64,000 bases of DNA, taken from contig OZ024740.1 in assembly GCA_964016885.1 (NCBI GenBank), positions 158,038,001 to 158,102,000 on the forward strand, read 5' to 3'. Positions 15,791 through 59,676 of the stretch are shown one piece after another (the first letter of the stretch is position 1; each line of letters begins with the position of its first letter). Made by a program: the position numbers and the translations under genes. Under the pieces are notes generated by a model that saw only the letters and a list, made by a program, of their open reading frames with translations, searched no databases and was not told the origin of the DNA. This DNA comes from Eledone cirrhosa. Lineage: Eukaryota.

Positions 15791-15984
15791 ACCCCCACTC
15801 TCAAGCGTGAAACTAATATTAACATTTGTACTGCCTCTTCGTTTCCACGTTGTCTTTTTGTTTTTTATTCACTGTCTAAACTATAATATAAATATATATA
15901 TATCATATATATATATATATTACTTCAAAATATTAATAAATATAGATATTCATGTGATCAAATATATTTTATTATACATATTTC

Positions 15985-16026
15985 AGAGGTACTGAGCTAT
16001 TTCAACAGTACGTCCTCATCAGATAA
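15985..16026 (-). ncRNA. Hammerhead core; degenerate sister copy at 31366-31406
   Basis: Minus strand: CTGATGA-ggacgtactgtt-GAAA-tagctc. Confidence 0.55.
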
Positions 16027-16148
16027 AATAAGTTGATGCCTGGCATACCTTGACTATGTTGATGGTTATAATTCAGTTATGACAGTAGAGTGCTTCTAAT
16101 CTATTGTGAAACTTTATTCATTGATTAATTCATTGAACCTTGTTAAAC

Positions 16149-16292
<144 letters not shown>

Positions 16293-16402
16293 GGATATAC
16301 GTTCCTTCACGCACAAGGCGCCAAGGTACGCATGTATTGTCCAACCAAATGCCAGTGTGGTTCAATGGCGGGTTAATAAATTAACGAGCCAGAACAAATA
16401 GA

Positions 16403-16975
16403 AACAAGGTTTAGCAAATAATGAAAAAGTTTCAAAATAAATTTTTAAAAATTGACTTTACCTACTATAGTTACCTTTACCGATCGGTTTCGAATCCCAA
16501 AAATAAAACGGAGACCATACGGCCTTCGTTGCAAAGAAAGATTCTCGTCAGAAGGTTCTTTTCACTCAAAGAATATAAAATTCCTGAATTTAAATCACAA
16601 ACTAGCGCTATCAAAACTGTTCCTGGGATGAGAGTGGATGAAGAAACAGGTTTATCAAGGGCCGTAGCAAAGATAGAGGCAAAAGGAGGTAGGTCAAACT
16701 AGCCACAGCTATTGTACGGCCCTTGATAAACCTGTTTCTTCATCCACTCTCATCCCAGGAACAGTTTTGATAGCGCTAGTTTGTGATTTAAATTCAGGAA
16801 TTTTATATTCTTTGAGTGAAAAGAACCTTCTGACGAGAATCTTTCTTTGCAACGAAGGCCGTATGGTCTCCGTTTTATTTTTGGGATTCGAAACCGATCG
16901 GTAAAGGTAACTATAGTAGGTAAAGTCAATTTTTAAAAATTTATTTTGAAACTTTTTCATTATTTGCTAAACCTT

Positions 16976-16979
<4 letters not shown>
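16403..16979. repeat. Near-perfect ~265-bp inverted repeat with an intact hammerhead in each arm
   Basis: 16403-16666 mirrors 16715-16979 (identical translations in the ORF track). HHR on + at 16825-16908: acctt-CTGACGA-gaatc...gattc-GAAAC-cgatcgGTA-aaggt. Mirror copy at 16473-16556. Confidence 0.9.
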
Positions 16980-17169: not shown

Positions 17170-17204
<35 letters not shown>

Positions 17205-17221
17205 CATATATATATACATAC

Positions 17222-17271
<50 letters not shown>

Positions 17272-17273
<2 letters not shown>

Positions 17274-17920
17274 TGAGATAAGCAGAACAAGCAAAATTCA
17301 AACAATTTTTTTAAATAAATTAAAAAATATAATTTAAATATTTACTTACTCCAGTGCTTTTACCATTGAACAACCCTGTATCATAGACAACCTATATATT
17401 TCCAGGGGTACTTAGTACCCGTGGGCATATTAACTTCATTTAATATACTCCGTTATGTAGAGAACAAATCTGTTGTTCTATTTGGCTGCTATTTTTAGTA
17501 GCGTTGTAGACAACACGTCTATGTTTACTTCCGCTTTTGCTACGGACTGGTTCAAGTATAGGTCAAATTTTGGCATCATTCGATCCTGTACTAGCTAGTA
17601 GATGGCAATATATTTTGCCGTTCCTGGGACTTTTGTCCTTGGAAAGGAAAATGCTCTCTGATGAACTTCACTTTTCCATTGGTGGTCCCTTGGATTTCTA
17701 ATGTTTTGTGAAGCGAAACCGACCGGTAAAAGCACTGGAGTAAGTAAATATTTAAATTATATTTTTTAATTTATTTTAAAAAATTGTTTGAATTTTGCTT
17801 GTTCTGCTTATCTCAATATTATAGTTCTGGTCTGTCAAATTAATACCATTGAACAACCCTGTATCATAGACAACCTATATATTTCCAGGGGTACTTAGTA
17901 CCTGTGGGCATATTAACTTC

Positions 17921-17922
<2 letters not shown>
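17272..17922 (+). mobile_element. ~485-bp HHR module with ~80-bp terminal redundancy and a 5' inverted segment, in (TA)n
   Basis: 17361-17440 is repeated at 17844-17922, and 17272-17362 is inverted against 17727-17817. HHR at 17652-17734: CTGATGA-acttcac..gtgaagc-GAAAC-cgaccgGTA. Confidence 0.82.
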
Positions 17923-18014
<92 letters not shown>

Positions 18015-19692
18015 CAATTTTACGTGTTCCAGACGAAAAACTGACTGAGATCATGCTGAGGAACCACCATTGTTGTTGCATTTTTTTATAGCTGTCCGTC
18101 TTTCGTTAGCCATTAATTCATGGGGAAGTTTGACGCAGCCGACTTAATTTGTGTTTATTGTCATGCTGTAGGTTCATCTGGGATTTAGACAGTTGAATGC
18201 CGAGATCCTTCTTGAAAACATTTACATCTAACCAATGTAGATCTCTCGTTTTTGTTTTTAGCATATTAAAGGACTGGGGCCATCAAACCTTGTCTATTGT
18301 AGTAGCTGGTCCTTACTCTGTGTGGAGGGTGAGGGCTTGACACTGAGCAATAACATCCTGTTCAGTGATTAGTCATGCTCTCAATGCCAAAGTTTAATGT
18401 TAGCCCTACTGAAAACGTGTGTTGAAACATATATTGTTATACTTTGGAAGTCATGCTGCCAATAAAAACACACACCTGTTGAATTTCACTTCAATTTATT
18501 ATTATAATTTCCCAGTCGGTTAGTTTAATAGATTTCTTGGGAGCTATAGGTGTCACCCATTGCTCCATCTCCCCCTGTAGTTACCGATGTTGGTCCGGAG
18601 TTGCTTATTTGTCCGGCAGTTGCCCGCTTATATCGCAACTAACCATCATACCCGGTGGCCGTATCACTATCTGCCACCTGCGACCCGTTCTTTAACAGAA
18701 CAGCTCTGCCGGATGGTTTAGTTGTTGATTGTCAAAGTTCTTTCACCACACATCCTGTGACCTCTTCAGTGACTACTTTTGTTGTTACTTTGTTTCTCTC
18801 CCTTGTTCTGTCTTACACTATCTTGTTTTTGTTAGCTGTGTGCTTGGGATGCGCAAGCATTGTATGTGCGTGTGTATGTGCGTGTGTATGTGCGTGGTGT
18901 TATTTATTCATTTATTTGTTTATGTATCTATTTATTTTCTCTTTTTCCTAGTTGCCACTTGTTCTATCTGTGTGTGTCTTTATATTGTCCTTAGTTACTA
19001 CAGTGTGGGCTTATTACTATTCCTCTCGTGCTTTCTATTTAGTTTTGATTGGAGTTCGTTTATGTATGTTACTTCAGTAATCTGTCGATTACTGTCGATC
19101 ACTTCTCTGAAACACCACTATATGTTTTCTGGCCTTTTGTGATAGTCCATTCAGAAATATGCAGTCATAAAATCACTGAGAATATCAGAATGTTCCTGCA
19201 AAAATATCTCAGGGGACCAAGAAATGTTTACCACGTGATCTATGGTTTACTGATCAGTCGTGTAAATGTGTGTAGTTAAATGATCGATGGAGGACAGTTT
19301 TCAGGCAATTTTTGTTTGCAAAAATATTCGTATTCATAGTTATGGGGATAAAAATAGAAGATTAAGACACTAAATACCGATTAAATCGATGTTTGCATTA
19401 AAGTAACGCCTCAGTCAATCTCAACAAATGACCATGTTGAATATATCATATATAAGTATATAAGACCAGTCAACTCTCCCCGTTCTACGGAGACATCTCC
19501 CACCCACTTTGGGGTGGATGGGAGATGCCTTCTCTTGTGAAAATGGGTATAGCTTTCATTATGTAAAATTTCCCATTATGCCTCATTTCTCCCCATTTTG
19601 GGGCACTTTTTTCATGGTACTCACCGTTTGGGTTTTTAGAGGTTGGCAGGTCTGTATATATGTGTGTGTGTATTTATGTATGTGTGTGTATG

Positions 19693-19790
<98 letters not shown>

Positions 19791-20248
19791 TGTGTGTTTG
19801 TGTGTGTGAGTGTGTGTTCGCTTATCTGTTTGGGAAGATAGCGCATTGCAGCTATAAGCAATCTGGAAATGAAAAAAAGTGTACAGCGAGAATCAAATCC
19901 CGCATCTGCCGTATACCGAACGACTGTCTTTAAACATTACACTGACTTAGAGACATTTATATATATATATATATATATATTGGATAACAAGTTATCGTTA
20001 TAGGTAATCCAGTTAGAGTACTCCGCGTCGTGGATAGTTTTAACGTACGGCTTTGTTTGACTCAACAAGATGTTTCCATAGTTATGCAGCGAGTTCGCGG
20101 TAATTTCTATGCAGGTTATACTTGGAGTAATAATAGTTAAAGAAAGAAGTGTAACGCGATTAGTGTACTCTAAACGCACCTAATCAACGAAATAATTGTC
20201 AGTACTTTAAATAAAGCCCTTATTGTAACCATGTTACTCTTCTTTCTT

Positions 20249-20341
<93 letters not shown>

Positions 20342-20343
<2 letters not shown>

Positions 20344-22580
20344 TTTCATTTATTAGCCACAAGGGCCGACATGTAGGGGACAATACAAAGACAGGGACAG
20401 TGGGGGTTTACAATAAGGTCGAGTAAAAGTGCACAATGGCAAGACTAATTTAACAATATAGGCGCATGGTCAGAGTAGGCCCATTCACACGAGCCATTCT
20501 CGCCACATTCAGCCACCTTTTAGCAAATGTACTGGGGGGTAGCACTTCTCTCTCCACCCTCACCTTCCTTTCCAGGTGAAACTTGAAGAAGTTGATGAGG
20601 GATTGGCCAAAGAGAAAAGTGTCTGTCTTTAGTCCTTTCAACCTGGTCCACCATATAATCTCTTTCGCAACTGCCACCAGACAGAGGAAAATTTCCTGCT
20701 CTTCCTGACCTAAGGAAGGCGGTGGATCGATCTTCACTATGGACTCGGCCGATAGCCGGATTCGTTCTACACGCGACAGTAGCTGTTCGACATAACTCCA
20801 CAAGTCAGTAATGCACGGACATTGGACAAGTGCGTGCAGAACGGTTTCGTCGTTCTGTGCGCATCTTGGGCAGGTCCGTCTGACAGCACTTCCGTGCCTG
20901 TAGAGTTTATCCCGAACCGGCAGTGCCCCCGGTAGCACTGCCAAGCGAGGGATTTCTGGAAATTGTCCATCGTCCCCGGCTCAAAAGTCCTCCGGTACAG
21001 ACTGGTCAGTTCGACTTCGTCGAGGCCCAAAGCTTCTCCGAGTGCGTCATCGCACTTGCCCACCACTAATCCTCTATAGAACTCGAGAGTGGAAGTTCCA
21101 CTGATCGCATTGCCCGCTTAGTAGAGGGCAGTGAGTGCCTGGCAACATTCCAGGTGCCAGTCACCCAGTCTCGGTCTCTTCTTGACCCAGGACTGCAGCT
21201 CAGTCAAAGAAATGAGCTGCGGAAAGGCCCGTCTGATAAACGGCGAGCACACCTGTTCACCGTTGAGGCAGAATATCTGTAGATGTCGCAGCCTCAACGC
21301 ATGTCTGCGCATCATTAGCCACGGCATGCCCAGCCCTCCGCGTAGAGGGTGCTGGCAGCAGATGGACCGCCTCACAAACGGAACTTGTCCCCTCCACAAG
21401 AATTTGAAGAGGAGCCGTTCCAACTTGACGAGGCGCCGACGGGGGCAAGGCACAACGGTCAGACGGTAGTAGATGACGGACGCGATGTACGCATTCGCCA
21501 CCTCCGCGCGACCTTTCAGTGATAGCTTCCTCCCAGCCCATTTTTGGGTAAGACTGGCTACTCTGCTCGTTACCTCGTCCCAATTCTTTTCCACCTGGAG
21601 GTCTGGTCCGAACCAAACTCCGAGCAACTTTACCGGTCCGTCCGTCCAGCGCCCCACGACGTTGTTGGACGGCATGGGCTTGCCTCTCCAGGTTCCGAGC
21701 CCACCGACTTTTCCGGGTTAAGTTTGGCTCCTGTTAACCTTTCATATTCCTTCAATAAGGTGCCGACCACCTCGATTTCTGAGGTGTTCGACACCATCAC
21801 GGTGATGCCGTCCGCATAAGCCGACACCGCCTTCCCACGTCCCGGTTCGAGCGGGATGCCCTGCAACAGCTCCAGCTTCCGCAGTAAAGGCTCGAGAGTC
21901 AATACGTACAGAAGGGAAGAGAGAGGGCACCCTTTACCGATCGGGAGAGCCGAAATGGTTCCGAGAGGTGGCCATTAACCTTGACCACCGAGCGTGTGCC
22001 GCTGTGCATTGCAACGATCCAGCTTCTAAAGACAGGGCCGAAGCCAGCTGCTTTGTGGACAAACTCCAGATACCGATGGTCGACCCTATCGAATGCTTTC
22101 GATTGATCTAAATTGATCAGTGCCCCACCGAAGCCAGGTTTACACCCTACCCTCTCTATGATGTATCGCATGAGGTGGAGATTGTCGTGTATGGACCTGG
22201 CTGGGATTGCGCAAGTTTGCGCCTCCACAACCAAATCCTCGACGACAAGCGCCAATCTCTTTGCTAACACCTTGGCCAAAATCTTAAACTCTGTGTTGAG
22301 CAGAGTTATGGGCCTGAAGTTGTCTAATGTATCCCTCTTGTTCTCGTCTTTCCTTATCAGCGTCACCCTCCCCTGCTCACAGAACTGGGAATATTCCCAT
22401 TCTGCTGCCAGTTGCAGTAGGGTGCTTCGAGGAGTTCAGAGAACAAGTCTGGCATATTTACGTAAAGCTCGTAGGGCAGGCACTCCAAACCGGGTGACTT
22501 GCGCCTCATGCAGCCGACAAGGGCGTCCTGAATTTCGGCTGAAGTAATCGGCCTTTCGCAGCGCTCAGCGTCGACCGTCG
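20342..22580 (-). mobile_element. Tx1/L1-clade LINE, 5'-truncated: RT through zinc knuckle (best-preserved copy, subfamily A)
   Basis: NFRPITLLNTEFKILAKVLA, LDQSKAFDRVDH, AYADGITV, KLLGVWFG and CPRC..ETVLHALVQC motifs, frameshifted. The 3' end abuts (AAT)n at 20288-20341. Confidence 0.92.
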
Positions 22581-23171
22581 AAATATGTATAATGAAATAA
22601 ATATGGTTTTATAAATATAGTTTCCATTTGTTAATATCGTATTTTTACTCCAAATATTTGTTGAGTGCTTTGGTATCCCAACAATTCAAATGTAACTTTG
22701 ACATATATATATATATATATATATACGATATTAATAAATGGACACTATATTTATAAAACCATATTTATTTCATTATACATATTTCAGGGATACCAAATTA
22801 AATTATGGTATGCCTTCATCAGACAAAATACAATATATAACAGTTTTACAAATAAGCTTTGACGTACCCTATTAAAATGCAACCATTATTTTTGGAAGCC
22901 ATCTGGATGGCTTCCAAAAATAATGGTTGCATTTTAATAGGGTACGTCAAAGCTTATTTGTAAAACTGTTATATATTGTATTTTGTCTGATGAAGGCATA
23001 CCATAATTTAATTTGGTATCCCTGAAATATGTATAATGAAATAAATATGGTTTTATAAATATAGTTTCCATTTATTAATATCGTATATCTACTCCAAATA
23101 CTTGTCGAGTGCTTTATATCAGTTATAAAAATATTTACTTGTTGTATCCCAACAATGTTAAATAGAACTTT

Positions 23172-23176
<5 letters not shown>
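22580..23176. repeat. Large palindrome with a hammerhead in each arm plus a partial tandem copy
   Basis: Centre GAAGCCATCTGGATGGCTTC at about 22904, arms about 22725-22900 and 22907-23085. HHR on + at 22982-23038: CTGATGA-aggcatacca..tggtatccct-GAAA-tatGTA. 22580-22700 repeats 23024-23175. Confidence 0.85.
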
Positions 23177-23216
<40 letters not shown>

Positions 23217-23220
<4 letters not shown>

Positions 23221-23792
23221 AATAAGGTTAATATATATCTGAGGGTACAATGTACCCCCGGAAATATATAGTGTGTCTATGATTTAAGGTGGTTCTATGG
23301 TAATAATTTGATATACCAGAACTTAATATCAAGATAAGCAGAACAAGTAAAATTCAACCAATTTTTCAAAATAAATCAAAATTAATATACAATTAAAATT
23401 AATCAAAATTAAAAAATATAATATAAATATTTACCTATTCAAATGGCCCTAACTGTACAGTTTCACGATGCAAAACATTAGCTATCACGTGGATATTAAT
23501 GGAAAAGCAAAGATCATCAGAGAAGCATTTTCCTGTCCTAGGGTTAAAAACCCCAGGAACGACAAAATATATGACCTCACTCCAACTAATTCAGGTCTGA
23601 AAGGTCGTGAAAGTGACCCGTAAATACATTGGTGTATAGTGAAGGCGGGAAATCGTAGACTAGCCGTCTATGATCGCTACCAAAAAAGATTTTTAGCAAC
23701 TAAATAGAACGACAGGATTTTTCTCTACATACTGGAGAATATTGAATAAGGTTAATATATATCTGAGGGTACAATGTACCCCCGGAAATATA
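23217..23792 (-). mobile_element. ~523-bp HHR module with ~52-bp terminal redundancy (diverged relative of 17272-17922)
   Basis: 23217-23268 is identical to 23740-23791. Minus-strand CTGATGA...GAAAC at about 23448-23527. Colinear similarity to the 17-kb module. Confidence 0.78.
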
Positions 23793-23879
23793 TTAGAAAG
23801 TGATGTTTTTTTACAAAATGAAAAAAAAACGAGGTGTCCTACACGAGTGAAAGTATAAGGAAAAAAGATAAAATAAGGA

Positions 23880-24937
23880 AAAAAGATGAAATAAGGAAAA
23901 AAGATGAAATCGAAAATGCAACTGGAGTCTTTTAAAAAAAATATATATATTTATTTGGTTCCTTTATATATATTCAAATATCAAATTTCTCAACGCTTCA
24001 TAAGTCAACCAACTTGTTTATAGTAATGGCCCAGTCAATGTTCTGTTACTCTGGAGTTTCTCCTGTCATCACACATACACGTACACACACGCATGCACAC
24101 ACACGCACACGCACGCGCGCGCGCGCGCGCACACACACATACACATACACACACACATGTATATATAATATATATATATATATAAGGAACAAAGATGAAA
24201 TCCAAAATGCAGCTGGAGTCTTTTTTTTTTAATATATATTTATTTGGTTCCTTTACCGGTTTCGCAGTTCTTCTGCTTTTCAAAAGTAGAATTGAGATGG
24301 AGGGTTTATGGTTTTTCTCACAAACCACAGACCCTCCATCTCAATTCTACTTTTGAAAAGCAGAAGAACTGCGAAATCGGTAAAGGAACCAAATAAATAT
24401 ATATTTAAAAAAAAAAGACTCCAGTTGCGTTTTCGATTTCATCTTTTTTACTTATATATATATATATGTAAAAGGTAAACAGAAATAACAACACAATCGG
24501 TACAGTATATGGAAGGTATATATTAGGTTGACGCTTGATATAGCAGGAAGAGGGTCTTAACGTTTCGGCCGCTAGTCCTTCATCAGAAGAAAGAATGAGA
24601 AATAAAATAGATTTAAGGGGGACGGGCGGGATAGAATTGGAAAAAATGTCTTTAGATAAAAATAATAGGTCCATTCATGTTGACATCTCTTGCAAAACTG
24701 TTGGTGCTGGAGTTTTGTGTATGATTTGTTTTTTAGAAAATATGTATATATACATGTGTGTGTGTATGTGCGCGCGCGTATATGTGTGCGTGCGTGTGTG
24801 TGCGTGTATGTGTGATGACAGGAGAAACTCCAGAGTAACAGAACATTGACTGGGCCTTTACTATGTGAATATATGTATATATAAACAAGTTGGTTGACTT
24901 ATGAAGCTTTGAGAAATTTGATATTTGAATATATATT
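23880..24937. repeat. Nested inverted repeats with inserted Penelope-like fragments
   Basis: 23968-24080 is inverted against 24805-24937, and 24190-24304 against 24331-24450. HHR on - at 24555-24590: tctt-CTGATGA-aggactagcggcc-GAAAC-gtta-aga. Confidence 0.8.
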
Positions 24938-31106: not shown

Positions 31107-31110
<4 letters not shown>

Positions 31111-31290
31111 GTTTCTACTTTTGGTACAAGGCCAGCAATTACCCAGTACATTAAGGTACTTTATTTTATCGACCTCGTAAGGATGAAAGGCAAAGTTAAC
31201 TTCGGCGGGATTTTGAACTCAGATTGTAAAGGGACGTAACTATGCTGGAAAGCATGTCTGACCCTCTACAGATACTGCCAATTCACCGAT
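31107..31290 (-). mobile_element. SINE copy
   Basis: Core, B box and A-box remnant present. Confidence 0.88.
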
Positions 31291-31445
31291 ATAATATTAT
31301 TCAAAATATTAACAAATGAAAAATATTCACATAATCAAAACATATGCTTTATTATATATATTTCAAAGGTACTGTGTTGTTTTTTCAGTACGTCCTCGTC
31401 AGATAAAATATATGATTTGATATATGACATACCGCTACGGTCTTG

Positions 31446-31492
<47 letters not shown>

Positions 31493-38861: not shown

Positions 38862-39262
38862 GATATATAAGTATTAAAGGATGAAGTATTCATGCGCAGA
38901 GGTGCAATGAACTAGCTTATAGAATAGGGGAAAGACCTTTAAAAGACGGAAAAGAAGTTGCCATCAGCTGTTATGAGGAATTGAACCCCATATATCCGAG
39001 ATACCGGCTAGGTGTTTTAAACCATTAAGCTAATGGACCGTGTTATTCATCTATCTAGTTAAAAAGACGGTAAAGTATTATCACGGTCCCTTAGCTTAAC
39101 GGTTTAAAGCGTTTAGCTGGTATCTGAAAGATGTGAGGTTCAATTCCTCATTGCGCTCGATAGCAATTTTTTTCCCAGTCTTTTAAGGGTCTTCACCCTA
39201 TTTTATAAGCTATACTATAGCATACCTAGGCACTAGCACATCATCCCTTATACTTATATATA
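38862..39262. repeat. Head-to-head inverted pair of tRNA-headed units (a different SINE-like family)
   Basis: Plus unit from 39082 has A box TAGCTTAACGG and B box GGTTCAATTCC. A mirror unit spans 39042 to 38862, with a ~40-bp spacer. Confidence 0.75.

Positions 39263-56200: not shown

Positions 56201-59676
<3,476 letters not shown>

What the first reader, a model, noticed from the sequence alone, without database searches (positions are those of the whole stretch)
17272..23792. Terminally redundant ~1.1-mer HHR modules with a fixed 3' end in (TA)n and variable 5' ends
Seen: 17361-17922 (unit about 485 bp, about 80 bp redundancy) and 23217-23792 (unit about 523 bp, about 52 bp redundancy, opposite strand) are diverged relatives with one HHR each. 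Both end at the homologous position (..attaac.t..tt then (TA)n) but begin at different points within the repeated segment. Inference: reverse transcription starts at a fixed point and runs past unit length. This is expected from a circular (retrozyme-like) or tandem-multimeric RNA template.
Basis: partly seen in the sequence, partly recalled or inferred. Interest (0 to 1): 0.72.

Follow-up and report, generated by a model that had tools for sequence, protein, structure and literature searches.

The report
Two-start ribozyme repeats in TA microsatellites
These are two related copies of small, protein-free jumping repeats that carry a predicted self-cutting RNA fold and end in TA repeats at either of two fixed points; they are likely copied by a Penelope-type enzyme, possibly from an RNA circle, which is a known kind of element.

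Summary
In detail: 17361-17923 (unit 483, 80-nt redundancy) and 23221-23793 (minus strand, unit 524, 53-55-nt redundancy) are 70% alike and end at the same homologous site in (TA)n. Three corrections. There are two fixed 3' ends about 105 nt apart (A, B), and A is the commoner (55:29 and 71:10 arms). Length is a continuum (0.05-7.8 units), not 1.1. The second ribozyme is degenerate. The first module also has an inverted arm (17272-17364), and inverted copies always pair one A end with one B end (17/17, 7/7, 19/19 in three families). No copy was shown to be the end of a coding Penelope body. These are non-LTR retrozymes with the insertion footprint of Penelope-like elements: thousands of copies, a covarying type I hammerhead and a conserved tail. 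A circular template fits (76/84 arms cross the cut site; repeated units share one haplotype) but is unproven: no RNA run was available, an uncut linear multimer also fits, and no partner enzyme was identified. Both the class and the circle model are published, and this scan found the same pattern before on other DNA, including this genome.

The parts
17171..17270 (.). TA/TACA microsatellite, left flank (target) of m1
17272..17364 (-). Inverted short arm of m1, 0.19 unit; its 3' end is at site A (17272, homologous to 17817); 4-nt overlap with the long arm at 17361-17364
17361..17923 (+). Long arm of m1, 1.16 units of 483 nt, 3' end at site B
17361..17440 (+). 5' copy of the 80-nt terminal redundancy of m1 (3' copy 17844-17923)
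17654..17732 (+). Predicted type I hammerhead of m1: long stem II with an inner hairpin, short near-palindromic stem III (this copy has one change from the family palindrome), predicted cut after 17728
17818..17923 (+). Tail between site A and site B (about 105 nt): an invariant first hairpin and a covarying second hairpin; likely RT recognition element
17923..18010 (.). (TA)44 after site B of m1
23175..23218 (.). (TA)22 after site B of m2
23221..23793 (-). m2, single arm, 1.10 units of 524 nt, 3' end at site B
23739..23793 (-). 5' copy of the terminal redundancy of m2 (3' copy 23215-23269)
23447..23524 (-). Degenerate predicted hammerhead of m2 (two mismatches in stem II, U at position 17, palindromic stem III), predicted cut after 23451
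23221..23327 (-). A-B tail of m2 (site A at about 23328)
16290..16978 (.). Third relative (h1 family, unit 480-483): head-to-head pair, left arm ends at B, right arm at A
23794..23966 (-). 3'-terminal fragment of a coding Penelope-like family (L180 family); its end abuts the 5' end of m2 without a TA tract

Best explanation
Both modules are insertions of non-coding tandem-unit repeats (non-LTR retrozymes) with a predicted type I hammerhead, likely mobilised in trans by the RT/GIY-YIG protein of a Penelope-like element that would nick (TA)n and start reverse transcription at one of two fixed sites on a likely circular unit-length RNA. Shown: unit structure, two fixed 3' ends (A, B) followed by TA, scattered 5' ends, no ORF, covarying hammerhead and tail folds, strict A+B pairing of inverted arms, coding Penelope-like elements with the same end layout in this genome. 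Inferred: transcription, self-cleavage (likely as a dimer through the palindromic stem III), ligation to a circle (about 55%), target-primed starts at A on one target strand and B on the other, stochastic fall-off that gives arms of 0.05-7.8 units, and joining of the two cDNAs head to head, with one arm often lost.
For: Ends: m1 sample (68 loci in genome order) 84 of 94 arms end at A or B, 79 of 84 followed by TA; m2 sample (75 loci) 81 of 94, 80 of 81 followed by TA. Inverted loci with both ends fixed are A+B in 17 of 17 (m1), 7 of 7 (m2), 14 of 14 and 5 of 5 (h1). Some pairs each hold sequence the other lacks (L051, L065), so one arm is not a fold-back copy of the other. Hammerhead: 17 of 25 pairs with two-sided changes, 89% of cells paired, 0 of 500 shuffles as high. 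Tail motif: 4,360 hits, control 1. Longest ORF 60-85 aa. Template intact across the cut: 76 of 84 m1 arms cross it, 22 twice, 2 stop at +1 to +7. Successive units of one arm differ at 54 of 633 (m1) and 29 of 503 (m2) family-polymorphic cells against 44% between arms, with no recurrent unit-position-specific alleles outside A/T runs. Circular folds are stable (z -5.9, -5.7 against mononucleotide shuffles). PLEs: 10,596 GIY-YIG candidates; a 938-aa RT+GIY-YIG ORF between pLTRs whose inverted copies are A+B in 6 of 7 (hand count). Two internal RT starts and AT-rich nicking are shown in vitro for an anole PLE (PMC11167929).
Against: No coding PLE among 7 families checked has a homologous hammerhead or tail, so the partner is unnamed. 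The m2 family is young (95-100% identity) yet its hammerhead is weakened family-wide, and in the anole PLE hammerhead mutants do not impair insertion and uncut RNA is the main substrate: cutting and circles may be dispensable. The A-to-G excess among variants shared by all units (16 of 60 against 26 of 394) was not reproduced in the held-out loci (1 of 9). One chimeric arm mixes haplotypes (L115, 11 of 16 polymorphic cells differ). In vitro the anole RT start did not differ between strands, unlike the A+B rule. One inverted PLE copy in this window (24176-24453) is A+A. The covariation shuffle ignores relatedness.
Confidence: 0.7

Rival explanations
1. Same element and same Penelope-type enzyme, but the template is an uncut linear multimeric read-through transcript of tandem source loci; no circle is involved and the hammerhead plays no part in insertion.
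For: Tandem loci of 2-7.8 units exist as possible sources. The m2 hammerhead is weakened. Uncut RNA is the dominant substrate for the anole PLE in vitro. Crossing the cut site is equally expected.
Against: Internal starts plus 5' truncation can only shorten copies, so multimers need a lengthening step. Units within an arm share the haplotype and no sibling insertions share unit-specific differences beyond chance. The hammerhead fold is kept by covariation across diverged families.
Confidence: 0.3
2. The modules are 5'-truncated pLTR stubs of a coding Penelope-like element that was not sampled.
For: The footprint (inverted 5' arm, one-sided tail, TA target) is that of coding PLEs. PLE sequence abuts a module's 5' end in sense without TA at L012 and at window m2.
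Against: Upstream of a unit lies another unit, up to 7.8 in a row, never a shared body: 66 of 96 5' flanks are TA and the other 30 share no contiguous sequence. PLE protein similarity was found in 13 of 219 module loci, with no consistent position or orientation. At L012 the PLE piece is itself broken and lacks its downstream end, as expected for insertion with target deletion.
Confidence: 0.07
3. DNA-level minisatellite: tandem duplication and fold-back repair in TA tracts, no RNA step.
For: Flanks are unstable microsatellites; arrays and palindromes can arise in DNA.
Against: Hundreds of dispersed copies on different contigs with 3' ends fixed to within a few bases and random 5' ends; inverted arms that are not subsets of each other; strand-specific RNA covariation.
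Confidence: 0.03

Closest known systems
Metazoan non-LTR retrozymes (Cervera and de la Pena 2020, PMC7229834, parts 2-4 of 6 read; Li, Clavereau and Pollet 2026, bioRxiv 10.64898/2026.07.22.740005, parts 1-3 of 5 read, supplements not seen)
   Same: Non-coding tandem units, GC below 50%, one type I hammerhead per unit, monomers to multimers dispersed in the genome, coexisting with PLEs; unit size inside the 51-972 bp range of Li et al.; circle-templated RT by PLEs is proposed there.
   Different: Units (483-524 nt) are longer than the 170-400 nt circles shown by Cervera. Expression, cleavage and circles are untested here. The parts read do not map two fixed 3' ends or an A+B rule. Li et al. 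found pLTR homology for 21 of 57 Xenopus families' matches; here no homologous pLTR was found.
Endonuclease-bearing Penelope-like elements (Craig et al. 2021, PMC8557442, passages; Arkhipova et al. 2013, PMC3846280, passages; Frangieh et al. 2024, PMC11167929, parts 1-2 of 4)
   Same: [quoted passage not shown]
   Different: No ORF. The tail is 105-112 nt against 30-40 bp. One-sidedness of the tail is strict in the samples counted here, and described there as frequent or optional.
PLE hammerheads with palindromic helix III (Cervera and De la Pena 2014, PMC4209133, passages)
   Same: Type I motif, long helix II, palindromic helix III suited to dimer cleavage; that paper already proposes circles as templates for more-than-unit reverse transcription.
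   Different: Loop 2 carries an extra covarying 10-bp hairpin; the m2 family has U at position 17 and a mismatched stem II.

Membership tests
Non-LTR retrozyme | Tandem units of a few hundred bp, non-coding, low GC, no LTR/PBS/PPT | tested here: met
   Units 483/524, GC 35%/32%, longest ORF 63/60 aa, arrays up to 7.8 units. PBS/PPT were not searched for specifically.
Non-LTR retrozyme | Type I hammerhead fold in each unit | tested here: met
   Invariant core and covarying stems I-III across 26 relatives; m2 variant weakened; Rfam models do not hit.
Non-LTR retrozyme | Self-cleavage of the transcript | not testable with these tools
   Needs in vitro transcription of monomer and dimer.
Non-LTR retrozyme | Accumulates as circular RNA | not testable with these tools
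   No RNA holder listed; genomic hints only.
Non-LTR retrozyme | Coexists with autonomous PLEs | tested here: met
EN+ Penelope-like element (autonomous) | ORF with RT and GIY-YIG domains between pLTRs | tested here: not met
   No ORF in the unit and no shared coding body at 96 5' flanks.
EN+ Penelope-like element (insertion footprint) | 5' truncation, inverted 5' arm, one-sided tail, AT-rich target | tested here: met
Non-autonomous derivative of a named PLE family | Sequence homology to the pLTR of a coding PLE in the same genome | tested here: inconclusive
   None in 7 families sampled; only 150 of 10,596 GIY-YIG candidates were scored.

The most novel reading that the evidence does not exclude
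These insertions are the genomic record of a Penelope RT-endonuclease dimer rolling round one unit-length ribozyme circle from both sides of a cut TA tract, one subunit always starting at site A and the other at site B, with RNA edits on the circle copied into every unit; the 105-nt two-hairpin tail is the portable signal that captures the enzyme.
Probability: 0.35. Interest if true: 0.65.

Novelty: new member of a known kind. Interest (0 to 1): 0.4.

Why it matters
Retrozyme mobilisation by Penelope-like enzymes and the circular template are proposed in print but, in the papers read, not shown. This superfamily gives a large, young, mappable set: two exact start sites, a conserved tail that can be put into the published in vitro PLE assay, and a strict A+B rule that constrains how both target strands are primed. 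The class, the footprint and the circle model are known, and earlier notes of this scan report the same pattern in other families, so the gain is a good test system, not a new kind of element.

Tried and rejected
Rfam gathering and E-value scans: no hammerhead hit. RNA search: no RNA holder listed; the three listed runs are contigs of unknown kind from one sample and show only that relatives at 85-99% exist there; no evidence either way on expression. Twin priming with run-off at the ribozyme cut, suggested by the window's short arm stopping within 4 nt of the cut: rejected as general, since inverted arms' 5' ends are scattered and only 2 of 84 arms stop at +1 to +7. Tiny hidden partner arms behind single arms: none found by a motif check, although L022 shows one by eye. 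Partner search: blastn, nhmmer and shuffle-controlled alignment against PLE loci L160-L199, L320-L322, L328-L331 found only separate retrozyme insertions; best z 3.0 for m1 against the L180 pLTR, at most 0.6 for the other 7 comparisons. The PLE ORF beside L045 lies beyond a TA/GA tract and is a separate insertion. Pol III A/B boxes: one weak B-box-like hexamer in m1 only, with many T runs; promoter unknown. A-to-G editing test: significant in the first set, not in held-out loci. Searches computed the A+B probability for 18 loci; the correct count is 17 (0.5^17 = 8e-6, hand arithmetic), and notebook entry 2 carries the wrong 18. Target-site duplications cannot be read inside TA tracts. The 2.2-kb RT fragment between the modules (20341-22580) is an unrelated LINE piece.

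Full report
Observation. The window comes from a 3.0-Gb, microsatellite-rich animal genome. Module m1 has a direct repeat at spacing 483 (79 of 80 identical) and m2, on the minus strand, one at spacing 524 (55 of 55). They align at 69.7% over 557 columns, E 2e-62, with homologous 3' ends running into (TA)n. Each holds one hammerhead-like motif. Rfam misses it, but over 26 relatives the core is invariant, 17 of 25 proposed pairs change on both sides and slid controls pair at 32-51% against 89% (the shuffle control ignores relatedness and I drew the structure from m1).

Copies. An exact 17-mer of m1 has 175 hits, an exact 20-mer of m2 has 354, and a tail motif shared by m1, m2, the hairpin at 16290-16978 (h1) and further relatives has 4,360, control 1. 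I mapped arms on a circularised monomer numbered from the predicted cut. The m1 sample is the 68 loci behind the first 100 of 175 hits (loci that proved to be m2 or held no m1 arm were left out); the m2 sample is the 75 loci behind the first 100 of 354 hits. m1: 94 arms, 55 end at site A (87-95), 29 at site B (191-197), 10 elsewhere; TA follows 79 of 84. m2: 94 arms, 71 A, 10 B, 13 elsewhere; TA follows 80 of 81. 5' ends cover the whole circle. Lengths run from 0.08 to 2.09 units (37 of 84 at least one unit) and 0.05 to 2.87 (47 of 81); the longest array fetched is 7.8 units. Both samples are biased against very short arms by their anchor motif. So there are two fixed ends, and 1.1 units is one point of a continuum.

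Inverted copies. Of 22 inverted m1 loci, 17 have both ends at fixed sites and all 17 are A+B; of 13 inverted m2 loci, 7 of 7; h1, 14 of 14 and 5 of 5, from loci chosen by likeness to a B-ended query, so only B+B could have been seen there. Junctions are blunt, overlap by 1-4 nt or hold short fillers. Some arm pairs are not subsets of each other, so both were templated independently; yet they share alleles (19 of 298 polymorphic cells differ in m1). The 105-112-nt tail between A and B has an invariant first hairpin and a second hairpin with two-sided changes in 4 of 7 pairs.

Attachment to coding elements. Of 96 5' flanks, 66 are TA and 30 share no contiguous body. Penelope-type protein similarity occurs in 13 of 219 module loci (duplicates included) in no fixed position; Pfam on 86 flank ORFs gave mostly LINE, LTR and Helitron pieces and one GIY-YIG fragment about 850 bp from a module. 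Two cases abut PLE sequence directly (L012, window m2) and read most simply as insertions next to a PLE end. The genome is rich in PLEs (10,596 GIY-YIG candidates, 150 scored). The L180 family has a 938-aa RT+GIY-YIG ORF with a CX4CxxC motif before the nuclease, which Craig et al. give for Neptune and Nematis; its pLTR shows a hammerhead-like motif (read by eye) followed by two fixed ends, and its inverted copies are A+B in 6 of 7 (hand count). No PLE among 7 families has a homologous tail, so the partner remains unnamed.

Circle or linear multimer. 76 of 84 m1 arms cross the predicted cut, 22 twice, and only 2 stop at +1 to +7: templates were continuous there, not cut monomers read to their end. 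Units within an arm differ at 8.5% (m1) and 5.8% (m2) of family-polymorphic cells against 44% between arms, and recurrent unit-specific differences are confined to A/T runs: multimers are repeatedly rebuilt from one haplotype, as a circle would do, though young homogeneous arrays would look alike. Rare variants shared by all units are A-to-G in 16 of 60 against 26 of 394 unit-specific ones (p 1.5e-5), but strand bias is weak (16 against 10 T-to-C, p 0.02), 4 come from one locus, and held-out loci gave 1 of 9: a hint only. Ten of 84 m1 5' ends fall in the 13 nt before the cut (about 2 expected, post hoc); h1 shows 5 at 476-483, m2 4 against 2 expected: a possible stall at stem III, not decisive. 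Against the circle: the weakened m2 ribozyme in a young family, and the in vitro result that an anole PLE inserts uncut RNA. No RNA run was listed.

Mechanism. Most likely the unit is transcribed from tandem copies, cut by dimeric hammerheads and ligated (inferred, about 55%); a PLE protein binds the tail, nicks both strands of a TA tract and primes at A from one strand and B from the other (inferred from the A+B rule; the bases after both sites are TA-like, which would allow short pairing); RT falls off at random; the cDNAs join head to head or one is lost.

Comparison. It meets the genomic definition of a non-LTR retrozyme (PMC7229834; bioRxiv 10.64898/2026.07.22.740005) and works like a PLE insertion (PMC8557442; PMC3846280; PMC11167929), but it is not an autonomous PLE. 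Circle-templated more-than-unit RT was proposed in 2014 (PMC4209133). Four literature searches showed no paper that maps two start sites or an A+B rule for retrozymes; the one-sided tail is described for PLEs. Earlier notes of this scan report the same footprint in other families of this and other genomes; they are not independent support. Verdict: real, well explained, a new member of a known kind; interest 0.4.

Noticed in passing
window 16290-16978, 17272-17923, 23221-23793; L010, L047, L061, L110/L323, L277, L305, L324, L325: Members of the superfamily cluster: 8 of 143 sampled loci (586 kb) hold a second superfamily insertion, under 1 expected from motif density; 1 of 44 PLE control loci. 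m1 lies within 10 kb of m2 in 3 of 30 cases, 0.08 expected. Could be homing beside relatives or uneven TA density; one of the 8 (L045) may be a split single insertion.
   Followed up: partly
window 24176-24453: Head-to-head pair of 3' ends of the coding L180-type PLE in which both arms end at site A, an exception to the A+B rule.
   Followed up: partly
L180:1900-1945 (minus strand); window 24340-24385: The pLTR of the L180-type PLE has a hammerhead-like motif whose core appears to carry a U3/A8 pair in place of C3/G8 (read by eye; numbering recalled).
   Followed up: no
window 22580-23175: Another hammerhead-bearing family: 186-nt near-perfect hairpin with a longer right arm, plus a separate 3' stub at 22580-22703; related motifs at 15921-16155 and 31110-31447 (minus strand).
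   Followed up: no
window 20341-22580 (minus): 5'-truncated, frameshifted LINE (RVT_1, zf-RVT) ending in a (TAA)n tail, between the two modules and unrelated to them.
   Followed up: partly
L012:980-2035: PLE end, PLE RT fragment and PLE ribozyme region joined without TA to the 5' end of an m1 arm: template switch or insertion with target deletion.
   Followed up: partly
L115/L326:3924-4834: m2 arm whose two units differ at 11 of 16 polymorphic cells, a chimera of two haplotypes.
   Followed up: no
L212, L213, L206: Three h1 arrays within 12 kb on contig C17 share the same 5' end and flank, pointing to DNA-level segmental duplication.
   Followed up: no
window 57731-58828 (minus): PIF1 helicase ORF fragment (Helitron-like).
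   Followed up: no
window 39092-39150: tRNA-like match (Rfam RF00005, 34.9 bits), probably a SINE head or tRNA relic.
   Followed up: no
L320:1636-3130: Very abundant C-rich PLE family (31,146 candidates) ending in a minimal hammerhead-like motif and (TA)n, with several long open frames.
   Followed up: partly
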